From positions 30,152-94,151 of IMG/VR virus record IMGVR_UViG_3300020198_000006: 64,000 bases of DNA. One strand, given 5' to 3'. Position numbers and translations under genes: made by a program. Below, one piece after another: positions 10,057 to 31,807 of this stretch (positions within the stretch are counted from its first letter, which is position 1; every line of letters starts with the position of its first letter). The notes under the pieces were generated by a model. It saw nothing but the letters and a program-made list of their open reading frames with translations, had not been told where the DNA came from and did not search any database. Source of the stretch: a virus.

Positions 10057-10248
10057 ATGATTATTGTCAATGTTTCAAAAGAAAAAAACCTTGAATCCGC
10101 ACTAAAAAAATACAAAAACAAGGTTCACAAAATAAAACAAACTGAAGAACTAAAAGGTAGACAAGAATATGTTAAACCATCGGTACAAAAAAGAAGTCAA
10201 AAGCTCAAAGCAATTTACAAAGAACAACTAAACAGAACCGATAATTAA
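10057..10248 (+). CDS. rpsU: Ribosomal protein bS21 (Bacteroidota-type)
   Basis: 63 aa, 'NLESALKKYKNK...ELKGRQEYVKPSVQKR...KAIY', Tyr at position 54. Confidence 0.92.
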   Translation: MIIVNVSKEKNLESALKKYKNKVHKIKQTEELKGRQEYVKPSVQKRSQKLKAIYKEQLNRTDN

Positions 10249-19982: not shown

Positions 19983-22001
19983 ATGCCAGTAGATTTTTTT
20001 GAAGAAGGACCGACGACCACCCCTAAAAGGGGGAAAAAGGGTTCAACAACCCCAATTCTTGATAATTTTTCAAGGGATTTAAACAAATTAGCTGAAGAGG
20101 GTAAAATAGACCCAATCATCGGTAGAGATAAGGAAGTAAAAAGAATCGCACAGATACTTTCCCGTAAGAAGAAAAACAACGTAGTTGTTGTTGGTGATTC
20201 TGGTGTTGGTAAATCGGCATTAGTTGAAAAATTGGCAATGTTAATTGTCAAGGGTGAGTCTCCATCTAATCTAATAGACAAACGAATAATGTCTTTAGAT
20301 TTAACTTCTCTTGTTGCGGGAACAAAGTATCGTGGCCAATTTGAAGAAAGAATTAAAGCGATATTAAATGAACTTCATAATGAACCAAATGTAATCATCT
20401 TCATTGATGAATTACATACCATGATTGGTGCGGGAAATGCTAGTGGTTCAATGGATGCTGCTAATATACTTAAGCCCGCTCTTGCAAGAGGAGAAATACA
20501 ATGTATCGGAGCAACAACCTTTGATGAATTTAAAAAACATATTGAGAAGGATTCAGCATTGGTTAGAAGATTTCAAAAAATAGTTTTAAAGGAACCTACC
20601 TATCAAGAGACAATACAAATTCTACAAAACTTAAAGGATTCATATCAAAACTATCATAAAGTATTCTACGAAGATGGTGTCATTGATACCATTGTTAAAC
20701 TATCTGGTCGTTTCATAACAGACAGACAATTCCCCGATAAGGCAATAGACGTATTAGACGAACTTGGTTCAGATAAAAAAATAAATATCAAAGTTCCCGA
20801 CATTGTCGAGAAACTAAAAAAGGATGCTGACGAAATCAAAAACAAGAAGATACTTGTAGTAAAGAGTCAGAACTATGAACAAGCAGCAAAGCTCAGAGAT
20901 GAAGAAAGAAAAATAATGTTAAAACTAGAAGCAGAAAAAAATAAGTGGTTAGAACAACAAAAAGATAACAAGACACCAATCTATGTTGATGATGTCTATG
21001 AGATTGTATCTAACATGACGGGTGTTCCCATTACAAAGTTAGACGACAACGAAACAAAAAACTTATTAAATCTTGAGGAGATATTGTCCTCCAAGGTTAT
21101 TGGACAAAACGAAGCGATATCAATTATATCTAAAGCGATTAGAAGAAATAGAGTTGGGATAAAAGATAATAACAAACCAATTGGTTCATTTATATTCTTA
21201 GGTTCTACAGGTGTTGGTAAAACATTTCTTGCAAAATCAATTGCTGAATTATTATTTGGTGACCCCGAAAAAGTGATTCGTGTTGATATGAGTGAGTTTA
21301 TGGAAAAACACAATGTATCTCGACTCATTGGCTCACCTCCTGGTTATGTTGGGTATGATGAGGGGGGTCAACTTACCGAAAAAATTAAAAACAACCCATT
21401 TGCTGTTGTATTATTTGACGAAATTGAAAAAGCACATAAAGATGTATTCAACATCCTTCTTCAGATTTTAGATGAAGGATATTTGACTGATTCTTTTGGT
21501 AGAAAAGTAAACTTTACTAATACTATCATAATCATGACCTCAAACATCGGCACCAAGAAAGTTTTCGATTTCGGAGGCGGTGTTGGATTCAATACCTCGT
21601 CAAGTGAAACCCAAAAGTATGAGATTAGAAAATCAATCATACAAAAATCACTTAAACAACAATTTAATCCCGAATTCTTAAATCGTATTGATGATGTTAT
21701 TTTATTCAATGCACTCAATGAAGAAACTATTAATAAAATTATCGAGATTGAACTTTCGAAATTGGTTACAAGATTGTGCGAAAAAAACTTCAACATTTTG
21801 TTTGATAAAAGTGTAATCAATCAAATTGCAGAACTTAATACCCAAGAGGAGTATGGTGCTCGACCAATAAAAAGAATAATACAAAACTTGTGTGAAGACT
21901 TTCTTTCCGATGAAATATTGAGGGGCACAATAAAAGAAAATCAGGTAACTACAATTAGGTTTAAGGATGGCCAACTAAAGATTTTAGATAAAATGGTGTA
22001 A
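19983..22001 (+). CDS. clpC: ClpC-type AAA+ unfoldase lacking the N-terminal Clp-repeat domain
   Basis: Two AAA modules ([16 protein letters not shown]), UVR middle domain ([13 protein letters not shown]), GYVG pore loop, 'GVGF' ClpP-docking loop. Confidence 0.92.
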
Positions 22002-22041
22002 ATATTCTGATTTTTTAAAAAATCATATATATTTATATCTA

Positions 22042-22135
22042 CAAGGAAATCTTTGCCGAAATCCTTTCGTTTTTAGTCTGTGGGGTTGAACCCACAAAAT
22101 GACCTCAAAGCCCCGATTCCCGTCGGGGCTTTTTA
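22042..22135 (+). ncRNA. Candidate small late RNA (sRNA-A)
   Basis: TATTTAT at 22030-22036, hairpin tgtggg-gttgaa-cccaca, terminator agccccga-ttcccg-tcggggct-ttt, no credible ORF. Confidence 0.4.
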
Positions 22136-22148
22136 TCTAAAATTTTTA

Positions 22149-22156
22149 TATATTTG
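22149..22156 (+). promoter_or_regulatory. Bacteroidota sigma70 -7 element TAnnTTTG
   Basis: TATATTTG immediately before ATG 22161. Confidence 0.6.
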
Positions 22157-22160
22157 TAAA

Positions 22161-22343
22161 ATGATAAAATATATTTTAATTTTAGTCACGGTATTCTCAT
22201 TGGGTATCGTGGCGTGTGGTAACAATTCCACCACATCAACGGAAACAACGGACTCAACCGCGGTAGCAGTGGACCCTTTCTCACCTACCGCAAATGATTC
22301 TACTACTGCTCAGATTACCGACAGTACTTTGAATCAACAATAA
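22161..22343 (+). CDS. Small lipoprotein with D-S-T motifs
   Basis: Signal peptide with lipobox 'IVAC', Thr/Ser-rich, three DST motifs. Confidence 0.7.
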   Translation: MIKYILILVTVFSLGIVACGNNSTTSTETTDSTAVAVDPFSPTANDSTTAQITDSTLNQQ

Positions 22344-22437
22344 TTTGACAAGTGCTCACTACCAATGGCGGAAATGTGAGTTGAATGTATTGATTGTGAC
22401 ACCACAGCCTCCAATTTTATAAAACAAATAACTTTAT

Positions 22438-22851
22438 ATGAAATATAAAATATATTTAGATGATGTTAGAACCCCCATTGCAAAAGATGAATGGGTGGTG
22501 GTCCGTTCGTATGAAGAATTTGTGAATATAATATCCGAAATTGGACTAGAAAATATCGAACTAATTTCTCTTGACCATGACTTAGGTGATACCGCAATGG
22601 CTGAGTGGCATTGTAATGTTTATCACAATTACAAATTGGATTATGATAACATTTTGGAAAAGACTGGAATGGATTGTACTAAATGGTTGGTTGAACAATG
22701 GATGGGTGGGAAACCTGTTGTAGATGTTGTTATTCACTCGGCTAATGCAATGGGTAGTGGGAATATGATGGGATACATAAACAATTATAGACATATACAT
22801 CGTCTACCTCAGAATTGTGTGAGGGTTCAATGGGAGCACACAATTAATTAA
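22438..22851 (+). CDS. Cyclic-phosphate-processing receiver-like domain protein
   Basis: 'IYLDDVR', 'ISLDHDLG', 'TGMDCTKWL', 'IHSAN'. Confidence 0.8.
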   Translation: MKYKIYLDDVRTPIAKDEWVVVRSYEEFVNIISEIGLENIELISLDHDLGDTAMAEWHCNVYHNYKLDYDNILEKTGMDCTKWLVEQWMGGKPVVDVVIHSANAMGSGNMMGYINNYRHIHRLPQNCVRVQWEHTIN

Positions 22852-22939
22852 CAATGGGGTGTTGAAAAACTTTTTGGTGTATCCCGAACTTTTAATCATA
22901 TTTGCTTAACCGATTAACTAATTTATAAACCAACCCTGT

Positions 22940-23272
22940 ATGTCTAAAATTAAAACTAACGTATCTACAAAAAAACTATCTATAAAAGGAAAGTATAATG
23001 AATTTAGCGACTTCTATGACGTTAACAAAGTAATAATCTATCAGAACATACTCAAGTTGTTCAAAACCTTTGAGGATAAAGAAAAAAACACACTTGTTTT
23101 AACAATATCGGCAAAGATTAAAAACATTGAATGGGAAACCGATTTGAAATTTACTCGTGATGAGATTAATGTTCTAAAAAGAGATATTATGCCCTATTTT
23201 GAAGAGATTGAGGATTATGAAACTTGTGGTGAGATATGTGAACTATATACAAGTTTGAAAGAAAAAAAGTAA
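22940..23272 (+). CDS. Hypothetical protein
   Basis: 110 aa, C-terminal 'YFEEIEDYETC' (UVR-like, also seen in 36770-37072). Confidence 0.5.
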   Translation: MSKIKTNVSTKKLSIKGKYNEFSDFYDVNKVIIYQNILKLFKTFEDKEKNTLVLTISAKIKNIEWETDLKFTRDEINVLKRDIMPYFEEIEDYETCGEICELYTSLKEKK

Positions 23273-23361
23273 TTTTAATCTCCTGAAATTCATATTAATA
23301 AATATTAAAATGGGGGTCTATTAACCCCCATAATTTTTATACATAATCATTTTTTTAACCA

Positions 23362-24117
23362 CTAATTAGGGAAAACACCTTTTTTAATCATTCTAAGAAG
23401 AATTCTACAACAAGCAATATCTAAAGCTTTTTTTGTTGATATACCAATTGTGGATTGATTGAACTTAACCTCACTTAAATTATCGTCATTTAGTAGTGTT
23501 AATTCTCTTACAGTTTTAGCTTCTCCTAAACCACTTGCAGCGATTATTTCTCCGGTCTCAGCATCAGTAAATCTTACTTGAAGACCTAATCTTGTATTTA
23601 CAATATTTTTTACACCATCTTTTAAATTTACAGTTTCATCTTCCGATACGGAAAAATCATAAACTTCAATCGTAACGAAATACCGAGCTAACCTGATTTT
23701 ACCTCTCTCATCAAGTTTATCTTGAGTTATACCTGATTGTGATGCCTGGAATTGTTTTACCATACGATTTTTTATCTCCGTCTGACTTTCAGTAAACACA
23801 AATCTGTTTAGTTCTGATAGAAATTCTAAACTGATATTTGCAACACCTAAACCAACTTTCTTTTCTTTTAATTCGGGATATTGTTCATAAACCTCATCAT
23901 TGATACCAATTTTTAAAATTTGAATGGGTATTTGAGGTCCACCATAGTCCATCAAATAATTGATATTAACACTTGTTTCAAACGAAGCCTTATATTGTTC
24001 TGTTTGTGTTTTACCAACAACTTGAGCGGTTAATTTATTTGTTATACAAAACATTAAAATAAACCAAATAGCAATAATACCAACTGTTATCCACAACTCT
24101 TTACTTTTTTCGCTCAT
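23362..24117 (-). CDS. CsgG/HfaB-like envelope protein
   Basis: N-terminal TM/signal, 'YFVTIEVYDFS', 'RLGLQVRFTDAETGEIIAASGLGEA'. Confidence 0.7.
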   Translation of the reverse strand: MSEKSKELWITVGIIAIWFILMFCITNKLTAQVVGKTQTEQYKASFETSVNINYLMDYGGPQIPIQILKIGINDEVYEQYPELKEKKVGLGVANISLEFLSELNRFVFTESQTEIKNRMVKQFQASQSGITQDKLDERGKIRLARYFVTIEVYDFSVSEDETVNLKDGVKNIVNTRLGLQVRFTDAETGEIIAASGLGEAKTVRELTLLNDDNLSEVKFNQSTIGISTKKALDIACCRILLRMIKKGVFPN

Positions 24118-24138
24118 TTTAAACATGTAATTCATATT

Positions 24139-24422
24139 TTATTCTATAATATCTTTTATTTTACCACACTTTAAACATTCTTCGACGCCATCACCATCCA
24201 TATCCCCCCATACGTGTTCACATTGTCTATGTGCGAAATACATATCAATCTTACCATCGCCATCAAAGTCAATACCATCCATTATACCATCTTCGTCCAC
24301 TTCTACACCAGTTCTTGCTTTAGTTGTTTGTTTTTCTTCTAATTTTGATACTGTGGGTATAACTTCTTCCTCTTTTTTAAACCAGACCATGTTCCGTCTT
24401 GTTCTTGTGTTTCTTCTGACAC
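24139..24422 (-). pseudogene. Chimeric gene fragment with EF-hand-like DxDGDG motifs and a C/H cluster
   Basis: An upstream GTG-SEETQEQDGTWSGLKK start is out of frame with the downstream 'DFDGDGKID..CEHVWGD..C..C' segment. Confidence 0.45.
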
Positions 24423-24426
24423 AGTT

Positions 24427-24881
24427 TTAGACTTTTAAAAATTGTTTAGTTAATTGTTTATTATAATTATTTAGAACTAAATAATAGCTTCCATTACTTA
24501 CATTCGTCATATCAATTTGTTTATATACCACAGTTTGATATCCATTTCCTGATATATTACCAAATTGTTTAATCATTTTACCTGATACATCGTAAACCGC
24601 AACCCCCGATTTAGTCGAAACAATATCAAAGAAGATTAATTCAATATATAACGTATAATTAGGTTGTTCTTTAGCCCCAACTAAGATTAAACCACCCTAC
24701 CCTGCTCGTTTATTATTTCTTGAGCAATATTTCTAACACCAAACGCCAAATTTTTATTACCCACAAGTGTTCCAACCTTAATATTGTTAACAACTGGGTC
24801 TACGAAAATTGTCGCATTACTTTGAGCTTCTACACCCAAGAAGAGTAAAAGTGTTAGTATCGTTATAACAATTAATTTCAA
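24427..24881 (-). pseudogene. Frameshifted signal-peptide protein fused to a T9SS type-A C-terminal sorting domain
   Basis: A 5-nt AGGGT duplication breaks the frame. The downstream frame ends 'AVYDVSGKMIK...IDMTNVSNGSYYLVL....LTKQFLKV*'. Confidence 0.7.
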
Positions 24882-24925
24882 TGATTTAATTGGTAAATTT
24901 TTATAAATTATGATATTAACCTAAA

Positions 24926-25180
24926 TTATTCGGGGGTCGCGCCACCACCATTCTTCTTATTTATCCATTTGTCTACCGATGCAATACCAAATGAACCTAA
25001 GGTAATAACCAAGAATCCATCGAATATGAATTCATTAATTAACAACTCTTTACCTAAAAAACCTGTAGTTAGGTCAACAAAGAGTGCAATCACCATCATT
25101 GTGAAAGAAAGAAAACCAACTACTGACTTTTCGTTGATTGTGTTGTTGTCGTTGAACAACTCGCTAAAAAATTTTTTCAT
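24926..25180 (-). CDS. Small two-TM membrane protein (holin-like)
   Basis: Two hydrophobic helices, late motif upstream. Confidence 0.5.
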   Translation of the reverse strand: MKKFFSELFNDNNTINEKSVVGFLSFTMMVIALFVDLTTGFLGKELLINEFIFDGFLVITLGSFGIASVDKWINKKNGGGATPE

Positions 25181-25477
25181 ACTTCATAGTTTTAGTTAGT
25201 GTTTAGTTTATGTTTTGGTTATCTATAAATACATTGAAATGGTTATAAACGGTTGGATTTTTACACTAAAAATTTTTTTGAGTTTTTATTTACTTTTACG
25301 GCACTTATTATTACCTTTATAATAGATTTAAACTTAAATTAATCTTCGATGAGACAATTCGTGCATACGACATCATTTACAATCTGTTCAAAATGGGCGG
25401 AGGTCTCTTGTAAGTATTTGAGTTTTATAGGATACTGAAAGAACCTCGGGAGAAATCTCAAGGACCTCCCAACCAAC

Positions 25478-25553
25478 GGTCGGGTAGCTCAGCGGTAGAG
25501 CAATCTCACTAAAACGAGACGTGACGCGATAGGTTCGACCCCTCCCCCAACCA
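25478..25553 (+). tRNA. Degenerate tRNA (pseudo, undetermined anticodon)
   Basis: D-arm 'tagctcagcggtagagc', 'ggttcga' and 3' acca are present, but the anticodon loop is irregular and the T stem is mismatched. Confidence 0.5.
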
Positions 25554-25599
25554 CTACGATTATCGTTCTTTGACATATTTTTAAAAAACAATTATTATT

Positions 25600-25956
25600 A
25601 TGGAACAGTTATTTGCATTTGTTCTTGGTGTTGGCATTATGTCATTGATTTATGGTTTAGTGTTAGTATTGAGAATGAGAAAAGAACTCAACAATGTTGA
25701 ATCAAATTTACATAACACAAAAGATGAGGTTATGTCAATTAATAGGGAAATTGAAAGAATCGATAAGAGAATTGACTCAAGGGTCGATAAACTTACCGAT
25801 ATAATATTTCGAGAATTAGAAAATAAGGAAAAAGACCTCCAAGATTCTATGACTCGAAATTATGAACAAACAAACAGAGATTTTGAATCCGTATGGAGAG
25901 AAATTGATAAACAACAACAAAACAAAAATAAAACACGTAAAGTGTTAACAGACTAA
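25600..25956 (+). CDS. Membrane-anchored coiled-coil protein inside the tRNA region
   Basis: N-terminal TM helix plus heptad-rich body, flanked by a 17-bp inverted repeat. Confidence 0.65.
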   Translation: MEQLFAFVLGVGIMSLIYGLVLVLRMRKELNNVESNLHNTKDEVMSINREIERIDKRIDSRVDKLTDIIFRELENKEKDLQDSMTRNYEQTNRDFESVWREIDKQQQNKNKTRKVLTD

Positions 25957-25990
25957 AAGTCATAAACAAAGAACGGTAATCGTTTTTTTT

Positions 25991-26066
25991 GTTCCTGTCG
26001 TCTAATGGTTAGGACACCTCCCTTTCACGAAAGTCATGTCGGTTCGAGTCCGACCTTGGGGGTACA
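25991..26066 (+). tRNA. Degenerate tRNA-Glu(TTC)
   Basis: 'gtctaatggttaggac' D-arm, ctTTCac loop, intact T-arm. Anticodon and acceptor stems are mismatched. Confidence 0.55.
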
Positions 26067-26182
26067 GAAATAGTCGGGTGGTGGAAGCGAGTAGTTGTAC
26101 AGCTGCCGATGGAAAGACACGGGGATGTGAAAGTCCCCACCAATAACGGCATATAGGTTCGAATCCAATCGGGGATACTCAC

Positions 26183-26256
26183 AGGGAAATATCGCGGTTC
26201 TGTAACGTACTTGGTTTAGGACCAATGAGTTGCGGGTTCGAATCCTGTTTTCTCAA
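26183..26256 (+). tRNA. Degenerate tRNA-Pro-like body with TAG anticodon (pseudo)
   Basis: cttgg-ttTAGga-ccaat anticodon arm (Pro would be ttTGGga), T-arm gcggg-ttcgaat-cctgt, D-arm decayed. Confidence 0.45.
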
Positions 26257-26306
26257 CTTTATCATCGGTAATGATGATAATTTATTTTATCGTCTATTTC
26301 AACGAT

Positions 26307-26378
26307 GTCTCCTTAGCTCAGCGGTAGAGCATCTCGCTGTTAACGAGAGGGTCCGAGGTTCGAAACCTCGAGGGGACG
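26307..26378 (+). tRNA. trnN: tRNA-Asn(GTT), intact, CCA not encoded
   Basis: Acceptor gtctcct/aggggac, D-arm, tctcg-ctGTTaa-cgaga, cgagg-ttcgaaa-cctcg. Confidence 0.93.
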
Positions 26379-26383
26379 CTTTA

Positions 26384-26437
26384 GGACCCTTAGGACTCAT
26401 AATCATTAGGCCCACGGTTCGAGCCCGTGAGGGTCCA
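26384..26437 (+). tRNA. D-arm-deleted tRNA-Met/Ile2(CAT) remnant
   Basis: Perfect acceptor ggaccct/agggtcc, ctCATaa loop, perfect T-arm cacgg-ttcgagc-ccgtg, no D-arm. Confidence 0.65.
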
Positions 26438-26604
26438 CTATGATGACCTATAGTGCAAACCATTTGGTGGGGATTTAAAAAAAATTTAAAAATTTTTTAA
26501 AAAAATTTTGGAATTTGGTTTTTTTCCTTTATCCTTGTAAAAGATTTGAGGATTTAGATATTGAGTCGAGAATCCAAAAAATAAGATTGTTCTTTGAATT
26601 AAGA

Positions 26605-27410
26605 TATTGGGCGGTCTATAGTCCATAAAATAAACCATGAAAGTGGTATAAAGTGACCTATTTGGTTTAAGTAGGTTGCGGCTTCCGCAAGGGAGCTCGA
26701 GTAGACAAACGAGGTATCGTTGAATCTTGAGTACCGAGGGTAACACTGTAGGGAAAGTGGTTTGATGAACGGGGGATGCGGGTCCTTCGTTTGAGGTGGG
26801 AACACCAATAAGAATAACTCGTAAGGTTTATGCAAGAAACACGGTCATCCAACTATGTCATTGCGTAATTCAATATGATGGGAATCTTAAAACCGAAAGG
26901 TATGGTTGTGTACGGGTGGTGCTGTTACAATCCTTGAATTGAATCTGCCAAGGTTTATTTCATGAAGGGGTCCAAAAATATGGAGGTCGGGAGACTTCAG
27001 AGGGTAGTTCAGTATCGTGTTGTCCAAAAGATAACATGGCTGGTTGTCGAGCCGCTACCTTCACCATCCGCGAACCAATACTTTGGTCTAATCAATGTCC
27101 AAAACATTAAATTAAATCAAGGAAAAGCGCTCGTCAGTCGTCGGAAACAGGTGACTACTTAGTAATGATGTGTTCATTGCCGTAGAGGGCTCCAAACCCA
27201 ATACGATTTTTAAGAAAGTTCTCTAATCTCGCAAGGATTAATTGGGGTGGCAACCTCGAAGAGTGATGAGTATTAAGAGAGTATTCGATGACTCAAGGAT
27301 TGGTTAATCTAATTGACCGTCACTGGTTGGTACAACCCAAAAGGTTGTGGATATGAAGGCAAACCATAAACCTTCTAAAGTCAACTACATAAACGTGTAA
27401 TCTCAACGTG
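26605..27410 (+). ncRNA. Large structured ncRNA, GOLLD-like (~800 nt)
   Basis: GC-enriched, no credible ORF, many GNRA-type hairpins (cttccGCAAgg, accGAAAggt, tctcGCAAgga), promoter-like element upstream, terminator at ~27445-27472, adjacent to tRNAs. Boundaries approximate. Confidence 0.65.
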
Positions 27411-27444
27411 TTTTTTATTTTATTGAGAAGCCAACCGCTATATT

Positions 27445-27472
27445 AAGTCAGAAGAAATTCTGACTTTTTTTA
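27445..27472 (+). terminator. Intrinsic terminator after the large ncRNA
   Basis: aagtcagaa-gaaa-ttctgactt followed by a T-run. Confidence 0.8.
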
Positions 27473-27833
27473 TGTTTTTAACATAAATTTCATTATATTA
27501 TTTTATGAGAATTATTTCCATTGCAAAACAATAATAACATGGATAAAACCAAATAAAAAAGAAAAAGAAAAAAATGAGTAAAAATCTTGAAGAAAAATTA
27601 TTAATCGGATATGAAGAATATTTGAAACTACCAAAAGCAGAGTGTAGTGGTATTAATAAAAAAACGGAATTATATACAAATGGTTGATGTGTATTATTAG
27701 GAAGGTCAATATCACACCCACATCCGCATAGACATTATACATTATTAGAATTTGTATATTGGTGTGGAAAAAATGAATTATTATACAGAAGATTTATACC
27801 ATAAACCAACCAAATATTAAAGTCATACAAAGT

Positions 27834-27941
27834 ATGAAAATGAAAAATAAACAACAAAAAAAAATAAAATGTCCTCATTGTGGTATTGAGGGTGGTAACA
27901 CTATGGGTAGATGGCATTTTGATAACTGTAAATATAAATAA
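27834..27941 (+). pseudogene. C-terminal remnant of a homing endonuclease
   Basis: 'KIKCPHCGIEGGNTMGRWHFDNCK' zinc motif without a nuclease domain. Confidence 0.6.
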
Positions 27942-27948
27942 TAAAATT

Positions 27949-28698
27949 ATGTGTAGAATCGTATGTATATCTGACACGCATGGTCTTCATAAAATAATGG
28001 GTAAATATGGGCGGTTACCTGAAGGTGATGTATTAATTCATGCGGGTGATTGTACAAATGTTGGTAAAGAAAAAGAAATAGAAGATTTTGTTCATTGGTT
28101 TCAAAATCTAAAAGGATTTGATACTAAAATTTTTATTGCCGGTAACCACGATTTTGGTTTTGAAAATTACAATGGTATTAGACATAATGGTGATGCTCCT
28201 TGGTTACACCATTTGTTGAATGAGGAAAATCTCTCACAATCCGATGTTGTTTATTTACACGATTCTGAGTTTATTATTGAATCACCTGAATTTTCAAGAC
28301 CAATAAAATTTTATGGTAGTCCCTGGCAACCTGAATTTTATGATTGGGCATTTAATTTACCGAGGAATGGGTCTGAGTTAGAAAAAAAATGGTCTCAAAT
28401 ACCTGATGAAACAGATGTTCTTATAACTCATTGCCCACCACACACTAAAAGAGATTTTATACCAAATAATCTACAAGTTGGTTGTGAACTTCTAATGTTT
28501 CGCGTGGAACAATTGAAACCATTAGTTCATGTTTTTGGTCATATCCATAATGCACATGGTGCCCAATACAATGAGGATACTATCTTCGTTAACGCCGCGA
28601 TATGTACCGAAAGATATGTTCCATCAAATAAACCGATAATCATCGATTTAAATGAAGTCGATGGTAAAATGATTGCTACATATGTCGAAAATAATTAG
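27949..28698 (+). CDS. Calcineurin-like metallophosphoesterase (MPPED-like)
   Basis: 'ISDTH', 'HAGD', 'AGNHD', 'LITHCPP', 'FGHIH'. Confidence 0.92.
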   Translation: MCRIVCISDTHGLHKIMGKYGRLPEGDVLIHAGDCTNVGKEKEIEDFVHWFQNLKGFDTKIFIAGNHDFGFENYNGIRHNGDAPWLHHLLNEENLSQSDVVYLHDSEFIIESPEFSRPIKFYGSPWQPEFYDWAFNLPRNGSELEKKWSQIPDETDVLITHCPPHTKRDFIPNNLQVGCELLMFRVEQLKPLVHVFGHIHNAHGAQYNEDTIFVNAAICTERYVPSNKPIIIDLNEVDGKMIATYVENN

Positions 28699-29359
28699 TC
28701 CTGTAAGTGTTGTTATATCAACCAGAGCCATAGATGAGGTTCACATGAATAAGGTGAAAAAAAGTTTTTCTCACCCTAAAACAGAGATGTTAATTTATGT
28801 AAATAACGGGGATTACTCACTCCCTCAGTTATACAATAAAGGTTTGAGTGAATCAAAACATGACATTGTTGTTTTCATGCACGATGATGTTATTTTTGAA
28901 ACCACCAACATAACGGGTAAACTAAACAAATTATTTAAAAATCATCCTGAACACGGAATTATTGGTTTAGCGGGTACCGATACGTTGGTGACAGGTAAAT
29001 GGTGGGAAAGAACCGACAAAACATATGGTCAGGTTAAACACGAATACAACGGTAGAGTACATAGGAACAATTTTTCAGGAACCTTTGGTGATAGTCTTAA
29101 AGACGTTGTCGCGGTTGATGGTTTATTCATTGCAGTTCACAAACAAAGAATAAAAGAAAAATTTGATGAGGAGTTTCCCGGATTCCATTTTTACGATATA
29201 CCATTCTGCGTTGCTAACTACACAAAAGGTGTTAAAGTCGGTGTAACAACCAAGATTTTAGTTATCCATAAATCAGTAGGTATGTTGAATAAAAAATGGG
29301 AAAAGAACAAATTGTTCTTTGAAGCCAAATATGGTAATTTACTCCCACTAAAAACATAG
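28682..29359 (+). CDS. GT-A fold glycosyltransferase (GT2-like)
   Basis: 'YNKGL', 'VFMHDDV', 'VDGLFIA', 'FDE..GFHFYD'. Confidence 0.8.
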   Translation: MSKIISPVSVVISTRAIDEVHMNKVKKSFSHPKTEMLIYVNNGDYSLPQLYNKGLSESKHDIVVFMHDDVIFETTNITGKLNKLFKNHPEHGIIGLAGTDTLVTGKWWERTDKTYGQVKHEYNGRVHRNNFSGTFGDSLKDVVAVDGLFIAVHKQRIKEKFDEEFPGFHFYDIPFCVANYTKGVKVGVTTKILVIHKSVGMLNKKWEKNKLFFEAKYGNLLPLKT

Positions 29360-29408
29360 TAGTTTTTTCAAATAATAGAAATATTTATTTATATAAAAAC
29401 TATATTAT

Positions 29409-29603
29409 ATGGTAACAATTATTGTAGTATTACTAATTTCAGCTGGAGTAGTATACTTACTAGTTAAGAGTGGTAAACTTAAAGATGACAACGGCAATAA
29501 CATACCTAATGTTGTTGAGAAACCAGTGGTTGATGTCGTTGAAAAAGTTAAAAAAACAGCAAAAAAAGTAACCGCTAAAAAATTAGAAAAAAAAACTAAA
29601 TAA
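29409..29603 (+). CDS. Small membrane protein with basic tail
   Basis: N-terminal TM helix, 'KDDNGNNIP', Lys-rich C-terminus. Confidence 0.6.
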   Translation: MVTIIVVLLISAGVVYLLVKSGKLKDDNGNNIPNVVEKPVVDVVEKVKKTAKKVTAKKLEKKTK

Positions 29604-29636
29604 CTTTTTTATCAATCAATATATTGTGGGTTAAAA

Positions 29637-29668
29637 TTTGTTTTTTAACCCTTTTTTATCTATGTTTG
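29637..29668 (+). promoter_or_regulatory. Bacteroidota sigma70 promoter for tmRNA
   Basis: TTTG (29637-29640), 20-nt spacer, TATGTTTG (29661-29668). A TATTTAT follows as well. Confidence 0.7.
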
Positions 29669-29685
29669 TATTCTATTTATCATAT

Positions 29686-30080
29686 GGGGGTGACAGGCAT
29701 TGATTGGCGTTGATATGGTAAATGGGCACGTAGTCGGATGTCATCTACGACTTAAATCTATGGTGGTAGTTTTTAAACGGCAACGTTTATAACAACATGG
29801 AAGTAGCAGGTCTTCTTGCAACTTCTAAAGTAGCGGCCTAACCAAGTTAGGTTCTACAACGGGTCGACGGACATATAACCCAGGAACAGAAGTCCTTACG
29901 GTGTAACACCACCTCAGAGTGTTGGAGCAAACTTGACGGCTCTTGAAAATCCGGTTATGAACAGGTTTGTTAATAGCTCTGAAAGAAATTAACTATTTGT
30001 TGGTTATGAATAATCAAATAAACGTGTAGTCCATTTATGATATTGCGAACAAGACGCGGGTTCGAATCCCGCCATCTCCA
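29686..30080 (+). ncRNA. ssrA: tmRNA, predicted tag (A)GNVYNNMEVAGLLATSKVAA at 29779-29841
   Basis: Acceptor gggggtg/catctcc with G3-U, T-arm gcggg-ttcgaat-cccgc, tag ORF ending in AA-stop, terminator after. Confidence 0.93.
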
Positions 30081-30086
30081 CAAAAA

Positions 30087-30112
30087 GAAACCCACCTATT
30101 GGTGGGTTTTTT
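30087..30112 (+). terminator. Terminator after tmRNA
   Basis: aaacccacc-tatt-ggtgggttt followed by a T-run. Confidence 0.85.
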
Positions 30113-30134
30113 ATTTTAAACCTATGGTATCTTA

Positions 30135-30240
30135 TAAACGAGCAAAGAGGTCAATTAAGACCCCTTTGCCTAGATGTTGGATACCCCCTTTCGTTTTTTA
30201 GTTTAGTTATCATCTATTGGCGACCAAACCAATAGAGTCT
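30135..30240 (-). ncRNA. Candidate small late RNA (sRNA-B) with an extended Shine-Dalgarno-like tract
   Basis: TATTTAT on the minus strand at 30245-30251, 5' hairpin cuauugg/ccaauag, central GAAAGGGGGUAUCCA, 3' hairpin at 30142-30169. Confidence 0.45.
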
Positions 30241-30266
30241 ACTAATAAATATCAAGAAAGTATCGA

Positions 30267-31220
30267 TTAAGTATATAACCTGGCTAATAATTTTAGACCT
30301 GCTAATGTTAGTACTCCACCCACCAAACCACCCCCTCCATCCAAAAGTCCACCACCTTCCCTACCTTGAGGTTGTCCTTGGACTGGGACGGGATTCTGAG
30401 CAATGTATGAACTCATTTGTGGGTTATCAGCTACTTTTTCTTCTCTAAACTTCTTATCATTTGTCATTTTATCTTCAAGAGCTGATAATGATGGTAACCC
30501 AAAAGTTGACAATAAGTTATTGGCCATGATAAATTTTCTAAATGAGTTTCTTCTATCTTGTCTTGACCAATACCGAAACCACCAATCTTTTACAAGCTCA
30601 CCCGGATTGATACCCTTTCTAGCTGCGTATCTTGTCAATCTTTCACCCTGATAAAAACCTTTAAGTCCTGACCTAAATGATGTTGGTGAAGTAAATGCCG
30701 ATTTTAATGCTCCTATAGGTTTTATTTTGGTTACCGAACTGGTAACAGATTTTGACAATCCTGCGAGACCTTCTTTAAGTCCCGATGCCCATGAAGATTT
30801 TACACCACCTAATTTTTTTATTGTAGTTTGTACACCAGGATGATTCACATATTTTAATGCTTTTTGTAATTCGGCGCCTAATTTTGGATTAGACGCAATC
30901 ACTCTCGCTAAATCATCACCACTTCTATAAATACCTTTACCAAAGGCTTGTAAAGCTTTAATCAATGGTTTAACTGTAATATCCCCAATAACAGGTACAA
31001 GAGCAATTAACATAAGTGCAGCATATAATTTCTCACCTTTTATCAGATAATAAATAATTAAGCCAATATCAGCAATTTCACCAATTACGGGAACAAAACC
31101 CGCCGCCATGAGAAGAGGCTCCACGTAGCGGGCGATGAACGCTAAAATAGCAGCTCCAACGACACCCTCATTGAGTTGTTCTTTTTTATATTCTAATATC
31201 TGTTTTTTTGTTAGTTCCAT
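30267..31220 (-). CDS. Membrane-type virion protein with a pre-toxin-TG-like helical hairpin
   Basis: 'AGFVPVIGEIAD...GEKLYAALMLIALVPVIGD', leader ending 'LNE'. Confidence 0.55.
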   Translation of the reverse strand: MELTKKQILEYKKEQLNEGVVGAAILAFIARYVEPLLMAAGFVPVIGEIADIGLIIYYLIKGEKLYAALMLIALVPVIGDITVKPLIKALQAFGKGIYRSGDDLARVIASNPKLGAELQKALKYVNHPGVQTTIKKLGGVKSSWASGLKEGLAGLSKSVTSSVTKIKPIGALKSAFTSPTSFRSGLKGFYQGERLTRYAARKGINPGELVKDWWFRYWSRQDRRNSFRKFIMANNLLSTFGLPSLSALEDKMTNDKKFREEKVADNPQMSSYIAQNPVPVQGQPQGREGGGLLDGGGGLVGGVLTLAGLKLLARLYT

Positions 31221-31807
31221 TAGTGTATGAATTTACAAACTTTGTCTGATATGGTCTCACCAATATTAGAATCTTTTATTACTTCACCTAAAATGTTTCC
31301 TGCAACTGTTGACGTTATGGGTCTAAACCCAATACTATAATCATCTCTATCAGAACCGATTTCACCCGCCGCAATATATCTTAACATAACAGTTAAAAGA
31401 CCATCAATTAATCGCGGCATACCTTCTTTAGACATACATGTCTCCATACTTTTAAATGGTTTTAATAAATGTAATGGATTGTAACTCGCAAAAAATTGTG
31501 CGGCGGTTGTTGAAAACCCGGCACCCGCCCCAAATACTTCTCTTAGAATAAATCTGATTATATATTCTTTTGCGGAGTTAATTGCGGCGTCTCCCATTAC
31601 CGATTTCCAATCCAATTTCTCCAATTGACCCCTTACATCAATTTCTTCAATTGTGTAACCCTCTTCAATAAGTTTAGATGAAATAGAAAAGATTCGCTCA
31701 ACTCTGAACGAATCGTCTCTAATATCTTCTACTTCAGAAAACGCCTCCTCGAGTTTTTTTTTACGTTCCTCAAGGAGTGTTTTTTTTATCTTGGTTTTTA
31801 ATTCCAT
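31220..31807 (-). CDS. Hypothetical late protein
   Basis: 195 aa, leader 'IKKTLLEE'. Confidence 0.5.
   Translation of the reverse strand: MELKTKIKKTLLEERKKKLEEAFSEVEDIRDDSFRVERIFSISSKLIEEGYTIEEIDVRGQLEKLDWKSVMGDAAINSAKEYIIRFILREVFGAGAGFSTTAAQFFASYNPLHLLKPFKSMETCMSKEGMPRLIDGLLTVMLRYIAAGEIGSDRDDYSIGFRPITSTVAGNILGEVIKDSNIGETISDKVCKFIH

What the first reader, a model, noticed from the sequence alone, without database searches (positions are those of the whole stretch)
30135..30251. Small late-promoter RNA complementary to the 16S rRNA 3' tail (anti-SD) in a bS21-encoding phage
Seen: on the minus strand a TATTTAT motif (30245-30251) is followed by a ~105-nt unit with a 5' hairpin, a single-stranded A-rich stretch containing GAAAGGGGGUAUCCA (30192-30178) and a 3' hairpin. 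Known: the 16S 3' end is ...UGGA(U/A)CACCUCCUUUC, whose complement is GAAAGGAGGUG(A/U)UCCA. The tract matches it with one G-U wobble and one bulge, while I see essentially no SD sequences before this phage's genes. In Bacteroidota the anti-SD is held by bS21/bS18/bS6, and flavobacterial rpsU uses an extended SD for autoregulation. Inference: an SD-decoy RNA that binds 30S subunits with an exposed anti-SD, working with phage bS21 to remodel or sort ribosomes late in infection. A 20-aa ORF (MITKLKNERGYPTSRQRGLN, 30213-30151) spans it and is an alternative reading.
Basis: partly seen in the sequence, partly recalled or inferred. Interest (0 to 1): 0.85.

Follow-up and report, generated by a model that had tools for sequence, protein, structure and literature searches.

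The report
Phage RNA mimicking rpsU ribosome-binding site
A large lake phage that carries its own ribosomal protein bS21 also keeps a conserved, protein-less small RNA. This RNA copies the unusually long ribosome-docking signal of its host's bS21 gene but has no start codon, so it probably grips the normally hidden tail of host 16S rRNA; a second phage RNA has co-evolved to pair with it.

Summary
On the minus strand at about 30238-30127, possibly running on to the terminator at 30088-30109, lies a small RNA ("B"). It has a phage promoter-like motif, two covarying hairpins and, between them, the tract AACGAAAGGGGGUAUCCA.

- **Conservation.** I recovered 63 distinct homologues from IMG/VR large phages. 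Those retrieved with a pattern that excluded the tract all carry AA(A/G)GG(A/G)GGU.
- **Match to 16S tails.** The tract variants GGAGGUAUUCC and GGAGGUGUUC are exact complements of two natural Bacteroidota 16S tail types, GGAAUACCUCC and GAACACCUCC.
- **Match to host rpsU.** The tract with its AACG flank and spacer closely copies host rpsU (bS21) initiation regions. No homologue has a start codon in range (0 of 63).
- **Not a peptide gene.** The 20-aa ORF is not conserved.
- **Phage context.** Phage genes lack SD sequences, and the phage encodes an SD-less bS21.
- **Partner RNA.** A second RNA ("A", 22038-22146, plus strand) is antisense to B and has co-varied with it between clades.

Best reading: B is a start-less rpsU-site decoy for 16S tails left exposed by missing bS21, and A is its antagonist. 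Binding and transcription have not been shown. B matches no Rfam family, and I found no paper describing it. This scan has already reported the same RNA family on at least seven other genomes.

The parts
30245..30253 (-). Phage promoter-like motif GATATTTAT directly upstream of RNA B
   Evidence: Exact match. ATATTTAT occurs 34 times in the 94-kb contig, and 23 of these lie 2-43 nt upstream of a same-strand ORF start. The motif is conserved in all homologues, but the retrieval patterns required it.
30123..30244 (-). Conserved core of small RNA B (covariance model R1 match). The 5' end is inferred near 30238
   Evidence: R1 scores 106.8 bits here and finds one copy per phage genome. The alignment A1 holds 63 distinct homologues.
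30213..30236 (-). Hairpin 1, with a near-invariant apical sequence GGUUUGGUC(G/A)CC
   Evidence: Fold. 8 of its 10 pairs show compensatory changes and 94.9% of cells are paired.
30178..30195 (-). Extended SD-like tract AACGAAAGGGGGUAUCCA, a mimic of the host rpsU extended SD that is complementary to the 16S 3' tail
   Evidence: -22.0 kcal/mol against the GGAAUACCUCCUUUCU and GGAUCACCUCCUUUCU tails. AA(A/G)GG(A/G)GG was found in all 63 homologues. Host rpsU leaders carry AACGAAAGGAGGUG, AACGAAAGGGGGUG or AAAGGGGGUAUC.
30172..30175 (-). Invariant AUCU, 6-9 nt after the SD core in 60 of 63 homologues. It sits roughly where host rpsU has its AUG (spacing 8-11 nt)
   Evidence: These columns are invariant in A1. 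Spacing table, and 0 of 63 with AUG/GUG/UUG 3-15 nt after GGAGG.
30141..30170 (-). Hairpin 2, with a purine-rich 5' arm and a pyrimidine-rich 3' arm. Loops in homologues are UUCG, GNRA, CUAAAG or UUAAUU
   Evidence: Fold. 5 of its 11 pairs show compensatory changes and 97% of cells are paired. Loop types were read.
30126..30131 (-). GAUACC, which can pair with GGUAUC (30185-30180) of the tract. Related ACCUC or AUACCUCC motifs occur here only in the W-like clade
   Evidence: MFE and centroid structures; flanks. Not universal.
30088..30109 (.). Bidirectional intrinsic terminator, the likely 3' end of RNA B. It is shared with the convergent phage tmRNA
   Evidence: Terminator scan. The tmRNA ends at 30081-30083. 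A comparable terminator lies within 150 nt in 26 of 63 homologues.
22028..22146 (+). Partner small RNA A with its promoter-like motif (22028-22036). CUUUGCCGA (22051-22059) and UCCUUUCGUUUUUAGUC (22062-22078) are antisense to B. A hairpin lies at 22080-22095 and a terminator at 22110-22134
   Evidence: Sequence. Model R2 scores 115 bits here and finds A in 5 of 5 phage genomes. The terminator covaries and has a T-run on the plus strand. A-B complementarity and co-variation between clades.
10057..10248 (+). Phage bS21 gene (63 aa). It has no SD upstream and keeps Tyr54
   Evidence: PF01165 at 37.7 bits; ORF and upstream sequence. bS21 is present in 3 of 3 near-complete phages that carry B.

Best explanation
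RNA B is an independently transcribed phage small RNA of about 110-155 nt. It presents, between two structural hairpins, a start-codon-less copy of the host's rpsU (bS21) translation initiation region.

In Bacteroidia the 16S 3' tail is normally buried by bS21, bS18 and bS6. Only 30S subunits that lack bS21 expose it, and the host uses this to boost rpsU translation (established: PMC7797042, PMC9976891, PMC13000453).

Inferred mechanism: B pairs with 12-15 nt of the exposed tail on bS21-free subunits. It then competes with host rpsU mRNA, and possibly holds those subunits. This blunts the host's bS21 feedback while the phage supplies its own bS21 from an SD-less mRNA. RNA A, an antisense paralogue, pairs with the 5' half of the tract and the 5' arm of hairpin 2, and so can switch B off or be titrated by it.

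Shown here: conservation, structure, strand, mimicry, complementarity, absence of a start codon, A-B co-variation and co-occurrence with bS21. Inferred: transcription, ribosome binding, the effect on host bS21, and timing.
For: 1. **Family and structure.** There are 63 distinct homologues. Both hairpins covary, loops include UUCG and GNRA tetraloops, and abundant G-U pairs fix the strand.
2. **Unbiased tract conservation.** A retrieval pattern that lacked the tract gave 86 stretches and 57 distinct sequences, all carrying the tract.
3. **Complementarity to natural tails.** Mean duplex energy is -23.0 kcal/mol (range -19.1 to -27.6), against -10.3 for shuffles. 52 of 63 have 12 or more perfect Watson-Crick pairs, up to 15. 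The same method gives -9 to -22 kcal/mol for host rpsU against its own tail.
4. **Variants match natural tail types.** UAUUCC corresponds to GGAAUA, UGUUC to GAACA, and GAAAGG or AAAAGG to UUUC or UUUU. Host rpsU SDs show the same A/G split according to tail type.
5. **Mimicry beyond the anti-SD complement.** The AACG flank, the GGGGG variant and the spacer (CCAACAU, AAUC) are shared with host rpsU leaders.
6. **No start codon.** 0 of 63 have one 3-15 nt after the core.
7. **Phage context.** Phage genes lack SD sequences. The phage bS21 gene has no SD and keeps Tyr54. bS21 is present in 3 of 3 near-complete phages that carry B.
8. **The part that matches the 16S tail is not explained by A.** The 3' half of the tract, which matches 16S GGAAUACC or GAACACC, is a B-specific insertion that A does not pair with. 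Pairing with A therefore cannot explain why it is conserved.
9. **Promoter-like motif.** The same motif precedes 23 ORFs in the contig. In one relative B follows the terminator of an unrelated upstream gene.
Against: - There is no transcript evidence.
- Phages and hosts are not linked, so the match between tract types and tail types holds at the level of sets, not pairs.
- Single-sequence folding leaves the tract only about 47% unpaired, with an opening cost of about 5 kcal/mol. In the window, GGUAUC can pair with GAUACC downstream.
- In the window itself the tract has a G-U and a bulge, and it beats the next genomic site by only 1.4 kcal/mol.
- A and B carry the same promoter-like motif. If both are made together, A would mask the core of the tract.
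- The correlated A-B changes could partly reflect gene conversion between homologous DNA copies.
Confidence: 0.5

Rival explanations
1. RNA A is the effector. Its pyrimidine-rich segment (UCCUUUCGUUUU) base-pairs with the SD region of host rpsU mRNA, or of some phage mRNA, and blocks it. RNA B is a target mimic, or sponge, that buffers A.
For: - A and B are complementary over most of their length: -30 to -56 kcal/mol against shuffles at about -27.
- They changed in step between clades, and only 12 of 5000 permutations reach the cognate mean.
- A is present in 5 of 5 genomes.
- By inspection, A's seed is complementary to 10-13 nt of host rpsU leaders such as AAAAACGAGAGGA and AACGAAAGGA.
Against: - The 3' half of B's tract does not pair with A, yet it is conserved and matches host tail types.
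- A's own variants (CCUCUCG, CCUCACG) are not compensated in B within the W-like clade.
- No consistent third target appeared in the phage genomes searched.
Confidence: 0.2
2. B is a protein-binding RNA. Its SD-like and anti-SD-like elements (hairpin 2, or the tract paired with a downstream ACCUC) imitate an SD-ASD helix and bind bS21, from phage or host. OLE RNA stem P6 does this in Bacillota.
For: - Hairpin 2 always keeps purines (CAAAGGR) on its 5' arm and YCUUUG on its 3' arm.
- Some relatives have AUACCUCC downstream, which is able to pair with GGAGGUAU.
- OLE P6 is an SD-ASD mimic bound by bS21 (PMC12054373).
Against: - The CCUCC core is not conserved in the 3' arm of hairpin 2. That arm covaries freely: GACCUC, GACUCC, GGACCU, GGCUCU.
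- The downstream ACCUC motif is restricted to one clade.
- Protein binding cannot be tested with these tools.
Confidence: 0.1
3. B is coding or cis-acting. It would be either the 20-aa ORF (30213-30151), a mini-ORF starting at the conserved AUC after the SD, or a leader for a downstream gene.
For: - The ORF exists in the window.
- AUC sits 6-9 nt after the SD core, within the range of SD-to-start spacings.
- In three relatives a small zinc-ribbon-like ORF follows about 60 nt downstream.
Against: - The ATG of the 20-aa ORF is present in only 24 of 63 homologues.
- Its reading frame differs between the window and L005, and it stops after 4 codons in L006.
- The AUC frame reads AUC UAG in the window, and runs through a hairpin whose loop and length vary.
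- No canonical start codon follows the core in any of the 63.
- In the window and three relatives, only a terminator and a convergent tmRNA lie downstream.
Confidence: 0.05
4. B is a relic or passive element: the leftover leader of a captured host rpsU gene, or simply a structured 3' UTR and terminator region of the upstream 317-aa gene.
For: - B lies directly after the stop codon of the 317-aa ORF (30267) and before a terminator.
- Its similarity to host rpsU leaders suggests capture.
Against: - Nucleotide conservation far exceeds that of the neighbouring protein, which is only 41-47% identical.
- Both hairpins covary.
- B has its own promoter-like motif, and in G004 it follows a different gene and that gene's terminator.
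- It has a co-evolving partner RNA.
Confidence: 0.03

Closest known systems
Extended Shine-Dalgarno initiation region of rpsU (bS21 autoregulation) in Flavobacteriales and other Bacteroidia (Jha 2021 PMC7797042; McNutt 2023 PMC9976891; Naeem 2026 PMC13000453)
   Same: Both have 12-15 nt of complementarity to the 16S 3' tail, with energies equal to or stronger than host rpsU. They share the AACG flank, the GGAGG and GGGGG variants, and a similar spacer.
   Different: B is phage-encoded and has no start codon and no bS21 ORF behind it. It is flanked by two conserved hairpins, has an antisense partner RNA, and was not found in the 151 Bacteroidota genomes searched.
Phage-encoded anti-sRNAs and RNA sponges (AgvB and AsxR of EHEC prophages; Tree 2014, PMC4104026)
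   Same: Both are small phage RNAs that imitate a target site and pair with another small RNA. A and B form a co-evolving antisense pair.
   Different: There is no sequence relation. Here both partners are phage-encoded and the mimicked site is a ribosome-docking site. Dependence on Hfq is unknown.
OLE RNA stem P6, an SD-ASD duplex mimic that binds bS21 (PMC12054373)
   Same: Both are non-coding RNAs that carry SD- and ASD-like sequence and have a functional link to bS21.
   Different: OLE is a roughly 600-nt bacterial RNA. Its mimic is an internal helix with an exact CCUCCU. B displays the SD side unpaired in its consensus structure, and its ASD-like arm is not conserved.
Molecular-mimic decoy RNAs (6S RNA for the open promoter; CsrB/RsmZ GGA motifs for CsrA); comparison from general knowledge
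   Same: The logic is the same: a non-coding RNA imitates a nucleic-acid ligand in order to titrate a cellular machine.
   Different: Here the proposed target would be the 16S rRNA 3' tail itself. To my knowledge no natural trans-acting decoy for that target has been described.

Membership tests
rpsU extended-SD translation initiation region (Bacteroidia) | 9-13 or more consecutive base pairs with the 16S 3' tail, at about -14 to -21 kcal/mol | tested here: met
   Family mean is -23.0 kcal/mol, and 52 of 63 have 12 or more perfect pairs. The window copy reaches -22.0 with one G-U and one bulge.
rpsU extended-SD translation initiation region (Bacteroidia) | A start codon about 8-11 nt downstream, followed by the bS21 reading frame | tested here: not met
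   0 of 63 have AUG, GUG or UUG 3-15 nt after the core. The phage bS21 gene lies 20 kb away and has no SD.
rpsU extended-SD translation initiation region (Bacteroidia) | Encoded in the bacterial chromosome | tested here: not met
   B lies on a virus record. Model R1 finds nothing credible in 151 Bacteroidota genomes; the best hit is 29.6 bits, against 95-124 bits in phages.
Any Rfam 15 family | Score at or above the family's gathering threshold | tested here: not met
   No hit at the gathering threshold. The E-value search gave only terminator-driven noise far below thresholds, for both B and A.
Phage anti-sRNA / sponge pairs | Extended complementarity between two trans-encoded RNAs, maintained by compensatory change | tested here: met
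   15 of 16 cognate pairs beat nearly all of 200 shuffles (at most 1 shuffle as low); the exception had 4. Three blocks changed in step between clades, and cognate pairs are better than non-cognate in all but 12 of 5000 permutations.
Phage anti-sRNA / sponge pairs | Both RNAs are expressed and interact in vivo, usually with a chaperone | not testable with these tools
   No RNA run available for the region; needs Northern blots, RNA-seq or RIL-seq.
OLE-P6-like SD-ASD helix that binds bS21 | An internal helix containing the exact ASD core (CCUCC) paired to an SD-like strand | tested here: not met
   The 3' arm of hairpin 2 varies (GACCUC, GACUCC, GGACCU, GGCUCU, GAUUCC). Only YCUUUG is constant.
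Small protein gene | Conserved start codon, reading frame and peptide | tested here: not met
   The ATG is kept in 24 of 63. Frame shifts and an early stop separate close relatives.
Intrinsic terminator / 3' UTR of the upstream gene | A GC-rich hairpin directly followed by a U-run, with no independent promoter | tested here: inconclusive
   Hairpin 2 is followed by UUCGUU(U)AUA, which is not a clean U-run. A true terminator follows in 26 of 63. B has its own promoter-like motif, but the transcript ends are not mapped.

The most novel reading that the evidence does not exclude
Giant bS21-encoding phages of Bacteroidota run a two-RNA circuit aimed at the host's only SD-dependent feedback loop. 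B is a trans-acting decoy that base-pairs with the 16S rRNA 3' tail of bS21-free 30S subunits. This shuts off re-synthesis of host bS21 so that phage bS21 takes over the ribosome pool. A, a partial mimic of the 16S tail, times or limits the decoy. It would be the first natural RNA known to target the anti-SD in trans.
Probability: 0.35. Interest if true: 0.9.

Novelty: new variant of a known kind. Interest (0 to 1): 0.8.

Why it matters
Why phages carry bS21 is an open question (Mizuno 2019, PMC6375957; Chen 2022, PMC9723584). McNutt et al. (PMC9976891) speculated that such phages encode products that help exchange bS21, and that host rpsU autoregulation acts as a counter-defence.

A conserved phage RNA that copies exactly the rpsU signal, without a start codon, is a concrete and testable candidate for the missing phage factor. 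The reagents already exist: F. johnsoniae bS21-depleted and deltaC ribosomes, and rpsU'-gfp reporters.

The finding also adds two abundant, unannotated RNA families (B and A) to huge freshwater phages. It would extend RNA mimicry to the anti-SD of the ribosome.

Tried and rejected
- **RNA evidence.** No RNA holder was listed among public runs for 21900-31300; only lake-water DNA metagenomes hold it.
- **GenBank phages.** blastn in distant mode found no match for the locus or for a relative's core.
- **Rfam.** No family matched B or A.
- **Host-encoded homologue.** Not found in the 151 Bacteroidota genomes searched.
- **Peptide reading.** Rejected.
- **Upstream pairing in the window.** The first MFE fold paired the tract with GAUACUUUCUU at 30264-30254. 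I rejected this because that sequence lies upstream of the promoter-like motif and is not conserved in relatives.
- **Alternative pairing of the tract with the 3' arm of hairpin 2.** This arm covaries with its own 5' arm, not with the tract.
Duplex scans of the contig and motif scans of five phage genomes gave no consistent extra site. Only 28% of this genome is held.
- **The second strong anti-SD complement**, at about 26005-26028 on the minus strand. It is only the complement of a decayed tRNA-Glu-like anticodon arm on the plus strand.
- **Linking individual phages to hosts**, to test tract-tail covariation pair by pair. This was not possible with these tools.

Full report
**What is at the locus.** The window is part of a 94-kb IMG/VR virus record that CheckV estimates as 28% complete, so it comes from a large phage. 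It occurs in lake-water metagenomes.

On the minus strand, the stop codon of a 317-aa ORF (30267) is followed by these features, in order:
- GATATTTAT at 30253-30245;
- a hairpin at 30236-30213;
- an A-rich stretch ending in AACGAAAGGGGGUAUCCA at 30195-30178;
- AUCU at 30175-30172;
- a 12-bp hairpin at 30170-30141;
- GAUACC at 30131-30126;
- a bidirectional terminator at 30109-30088.

The terminator is shared with a convergent phage tmRNA at 29686-30083. The 156-nt stretch folds at -53.1 kcal/mol, against -30.6 +/- 3.8 for shuffles.

**It is a widespread, structured RNA on this strand.**
- Two relatives found through the neighbouring protein keep the element almost base for base, although that protein is only 41-47% identical.
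- Pattern scans of IMG/VR then gave many more copies. Together they make 63 distinct sequences, from contigs of up to 333 kb.
- On this alignment both hairpins are supported. 96% of cells are paired, 13 of 21 pairs show changes on both sides, and 0 of 500 shuffles reach the observed values. Sliding the 3' partners by 1-3 columns drops pairing to 37-54%.
- About 285 of 1314 paired cells are G-U, which would be A-C mismatches on the other strand. Hairpin 2 loops include UUCG and GNRA tetraloops. The RNA is therefore read from the window's minus strand.
- Covariance model R1 finds one copy per phage genome at 95-124 bits. It finds nothing credible in 151 Bacteroidota genomes (best 29.6 bits).
- No Rfam 15 family matches, and no GenBank phage record matches.

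**Independent transcription is plausible but unproven.** ATATTTAT occurs 34 times in the contig, and 23 of these lie 2-43 nt upstream of a same-strand ORF start. B and its partner A each have the motif with no ORF behind it. In relative G004, B follows the terminator of an unrelated upstream gene. I could not test timing ('late').

**The peptide alternative fails.**
- The ATG of the 20-aa ORF is kept in only 24 of 63 homologues.
- The frame across the tract differs between the window and L005.
- In L006 the ORF stops after four codons.
- No homologue has AUG, GUG or UUG 3-15 nt after the SD core (0 of 63).

**The tract is the invariant heart of the RNA.** One scan pattern contained only the promoter-like motif and the hairpin-1 apex, not the tract. 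It returned 86 stretches and 57 distinct sequences, and every one carries AA(A/G)GG(A/G)GGU.

I sampled real Bacteroidota 16S 3' ends. They fall into GGAAUACCUCCUUU(U/C)U, GGAACACCUCCUUUCU and GGAUCACCUCCUUUCU, plus two alternative-ASD types. The B variants line up with these:

| B tract variant | Natural 16S tail it complements |
|---|---|
| GAAAGGAGGUAUUCC | GGAAUACCUCCUUUC (15 nt, exact) |
| AAAAGGAGGUAUUC | GAAUACCUCCUUUU (exact) |
| AAAGGAGGUGUUC | GAACACCUCCUUU (exact) |

Across the family the duplex energy averages -23.0 kcal/mol (range -19.1 to -27.6), against -10.3 for shuffles, and 52 of 63 have at least 12 perfect pairs.

The window's own copy has GGGGG, which gives one G-U, and UAUCC, which gives one bulge. 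It scores -22.0 kcal/mol. That is the best site in the contig, but only 1.4 kcal/mol better than the next.

**It copies the host's rpsU initiation region.** In Bacteroidia the anti-SD is buried by bS21, bS18 and bS6. In Flavobacteriales, rpsU is typically the only gene with a strong SD: its extended SD forms 9-13 bp at -14 to -21 kcal/mol. Ribosomes lacking bS21 translate rpsU faster, which closes an autoregulatory loop (PMC7797042; PMC9976891; PMC13000453).

I fetched rpsU leaders from sampled genomes whose 16S tails I had read.
- Genomes with the GGAACA tail have UUAACGAAAGGAGGUGUC...AUG or UUAACGAAAGGGGGUGA...AUG.
- Genomes with the GGAAUA tail have AAAACGAGAGGAGGUAUUUUUAAUCAUG or CAAAGGGGGUAUCAUUCCAUG.
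- One genome has AUGAAAGGAGGUGCCAACAUAUG.

B shares several features with these leaders that go beyond the anti-SD complement:
- the AACG (or AUG) flank, which the 16S tail does not pair with;
- the GGGGG variant;
- the A/G split after GGAGGU according to tail type;
- spacer motifs: CCAACAU in the window, and AAUC in relatives.

Where the host has AUG, B has CUC or UCG. With the same method, host rpsU against its own tail gives -9 to -22 kcal/mol, so B pairs as strongly or more strongly. B is therefore best described as a start-less rpsU-site mimic.

**Phage context fits.**
- Phage genes show no SD enrichment: 7 of 96 upstream regions against 6 of 96 controls.
- The phage bS21 gene (10057-10248) has no SD and keeps Tyr54, the residue that redirects the 16S tail (PMC9976891).
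- All three near-complete phage genomes that carry B encode bS21.
- The phages resemble the freshwater bS21 huge phages of Bacteroidetes described by Chen et al. That paper does not mention tmRNA or small, non-coding or intergenic RNA.

**A partner RNA.** Earlier notes from this scan pointed to 22030-22135. This RNA A lies on the plus strand after clpC. It has the same promoter-like motif, a conserved hairpin, and a covarying terminator with a plus-strand T-run. It is 81-95% identical in five relatives. Model R2 finds it in 5 of 5 phage genomes, including a distant clade.

The reverse complement of A is homologous to B, except that B has an extra segment of 9-10 nt (GGUAUUCCAC or AGGUGUUCU). 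Cognate A-B duplexes reach -30 to -56 kcal/mol, against about -27 for shuffles. Between clades, three blocks changed in step:

| B | A | B (distant clade) | A (distant clade) |
|---|---|---|---|
| CGAAAGG | CCUUUCG | CGAAAAGG | CCUUUUCG |
| UCGGCAAAG | CUUUGCCGA | UCGACAAAG | CUUUGUCGA |
| GACUAAAAA | UUUUUAGUC | ACUUAUAAA | CAUAAGU |

Cognate pairs are better than non-cognate ones in all but 12 of 5000 permutations. A C-to-U change in B gives a tolerated G-U pair. Gene conversion between the two DNA copies could contribute to these correlated changes.

The B-specific segment is exactly the part that complements 16S GGAAUACC or GAACACC. A does not pair with it. Its conservation therefore needs an explanation other than A.

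**Mechanism and rivals.**
- **Best reading (about 0.5).** B pairs with the 16S tail exposed on bS21-free 30S subunits. It competes with host rpsU mRNA and so undermines the host's bS21 feedback, while phage bS21 is made from an SD-less mRNA. A masks or titrates B.
- **Main rival (about 0.2).** A is the effector, acting against host rpsU mRNA or a phage mRNA, and B is its sponge.
- **bS21-binding reading, modelled on OLE RNA P6 (about 0.1; PMC12054373).** This is weakened because the anti-SD-like arm of hairpin 2 is not conserved.
- **Coding, leader or relic readings.** These are unlikely.

Caveats:
- There is no transcript evidence.
- Phages and hosts are not linked individually.
- The tract is only moderately open in single-sequence folds.
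- The homologues were retrieved with patterns that require the promoter-like motif and the hairpin-1 apex.

**Novelty.** I found no paper describing such an RNA. Within this scan, follow-up agents have already reported the same family on at least seven other genomes, with the same reading. My analysis reached the rpsU-mimic conclusion from host leaders before I saw those notes.

Noticed in passing
window 27000-27409 (+): A full-length GOLLD RNA (Rfam RF02032, 309 bits, E = 1.5e-87). It lies between the tRNA array and a metallophosphoesterase gene.
   Followed up: no
window 29686-30083 (+): A phage-encoded tmRNA, found by ARAGORN and by Rfam (73.5 bits), with an unusually long predicted 20-aa tag ending in AA. 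It converges on RNA B and shares B's terminator. The B/tmRNA arrangement is kept in three relatives.
   Followed up: partly
whole contig G000; e.g. window 1074, 8750, 35101, 44441, 48543, 61910: ATATTTAT lies 2-43 nt upstream of 23 same-strand ORF starts, out of 34 occurrences. Many are only 2-20 nt from the ATG, which implies very short or absent leaders for phage mRNAs.
   Followed up: partly
window 25991-26065 (+): A tRNA-Glu-like gene whose anticodon stem is broken (CCUCC opposite GAAAG). Its sequence GGACACCUCCCUUUC resembles the 16S tail, so its complement scores -20.4 kcal/mol as an anti-SD partner. This is probably coincidental.
   Followed up: partly
L022 (G004), L010 (G005), L012 (G006): about 60 nt downstream of RNA B: A conserved small ORF of roughly 65-70 aa with CPxC...CPxC zinc-ribbon-like motifs follows B on the same strand in these relatives. 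It is absent after B in the window.
   Followed up: no
G158:C1:148076-148190 (-): A weak second hit of the RNA B model (33 bits, E = 4e-4) in a 324-kb relative. It could be a diverged paralogue or chance.
   Followed up: no
window 26183-26256 (+) and 25478-25554 (+): Rfam calls a weak tRNA (34.9 bits) at 26183-26256 that ARAGORN misses. ARAGORN calls a tRNA with an undetermined anticodon at 25478-25554. This is consistent with a partly degenerate tRNA array.
   Followed up: no
window 30267-31220 (-) and upstream ORFs to 35081: The four co-oriented ORFs upstream of RNA B (317, 195, 627 and 450 aa) have no Pfam or PHROG match.
   Followed up: no
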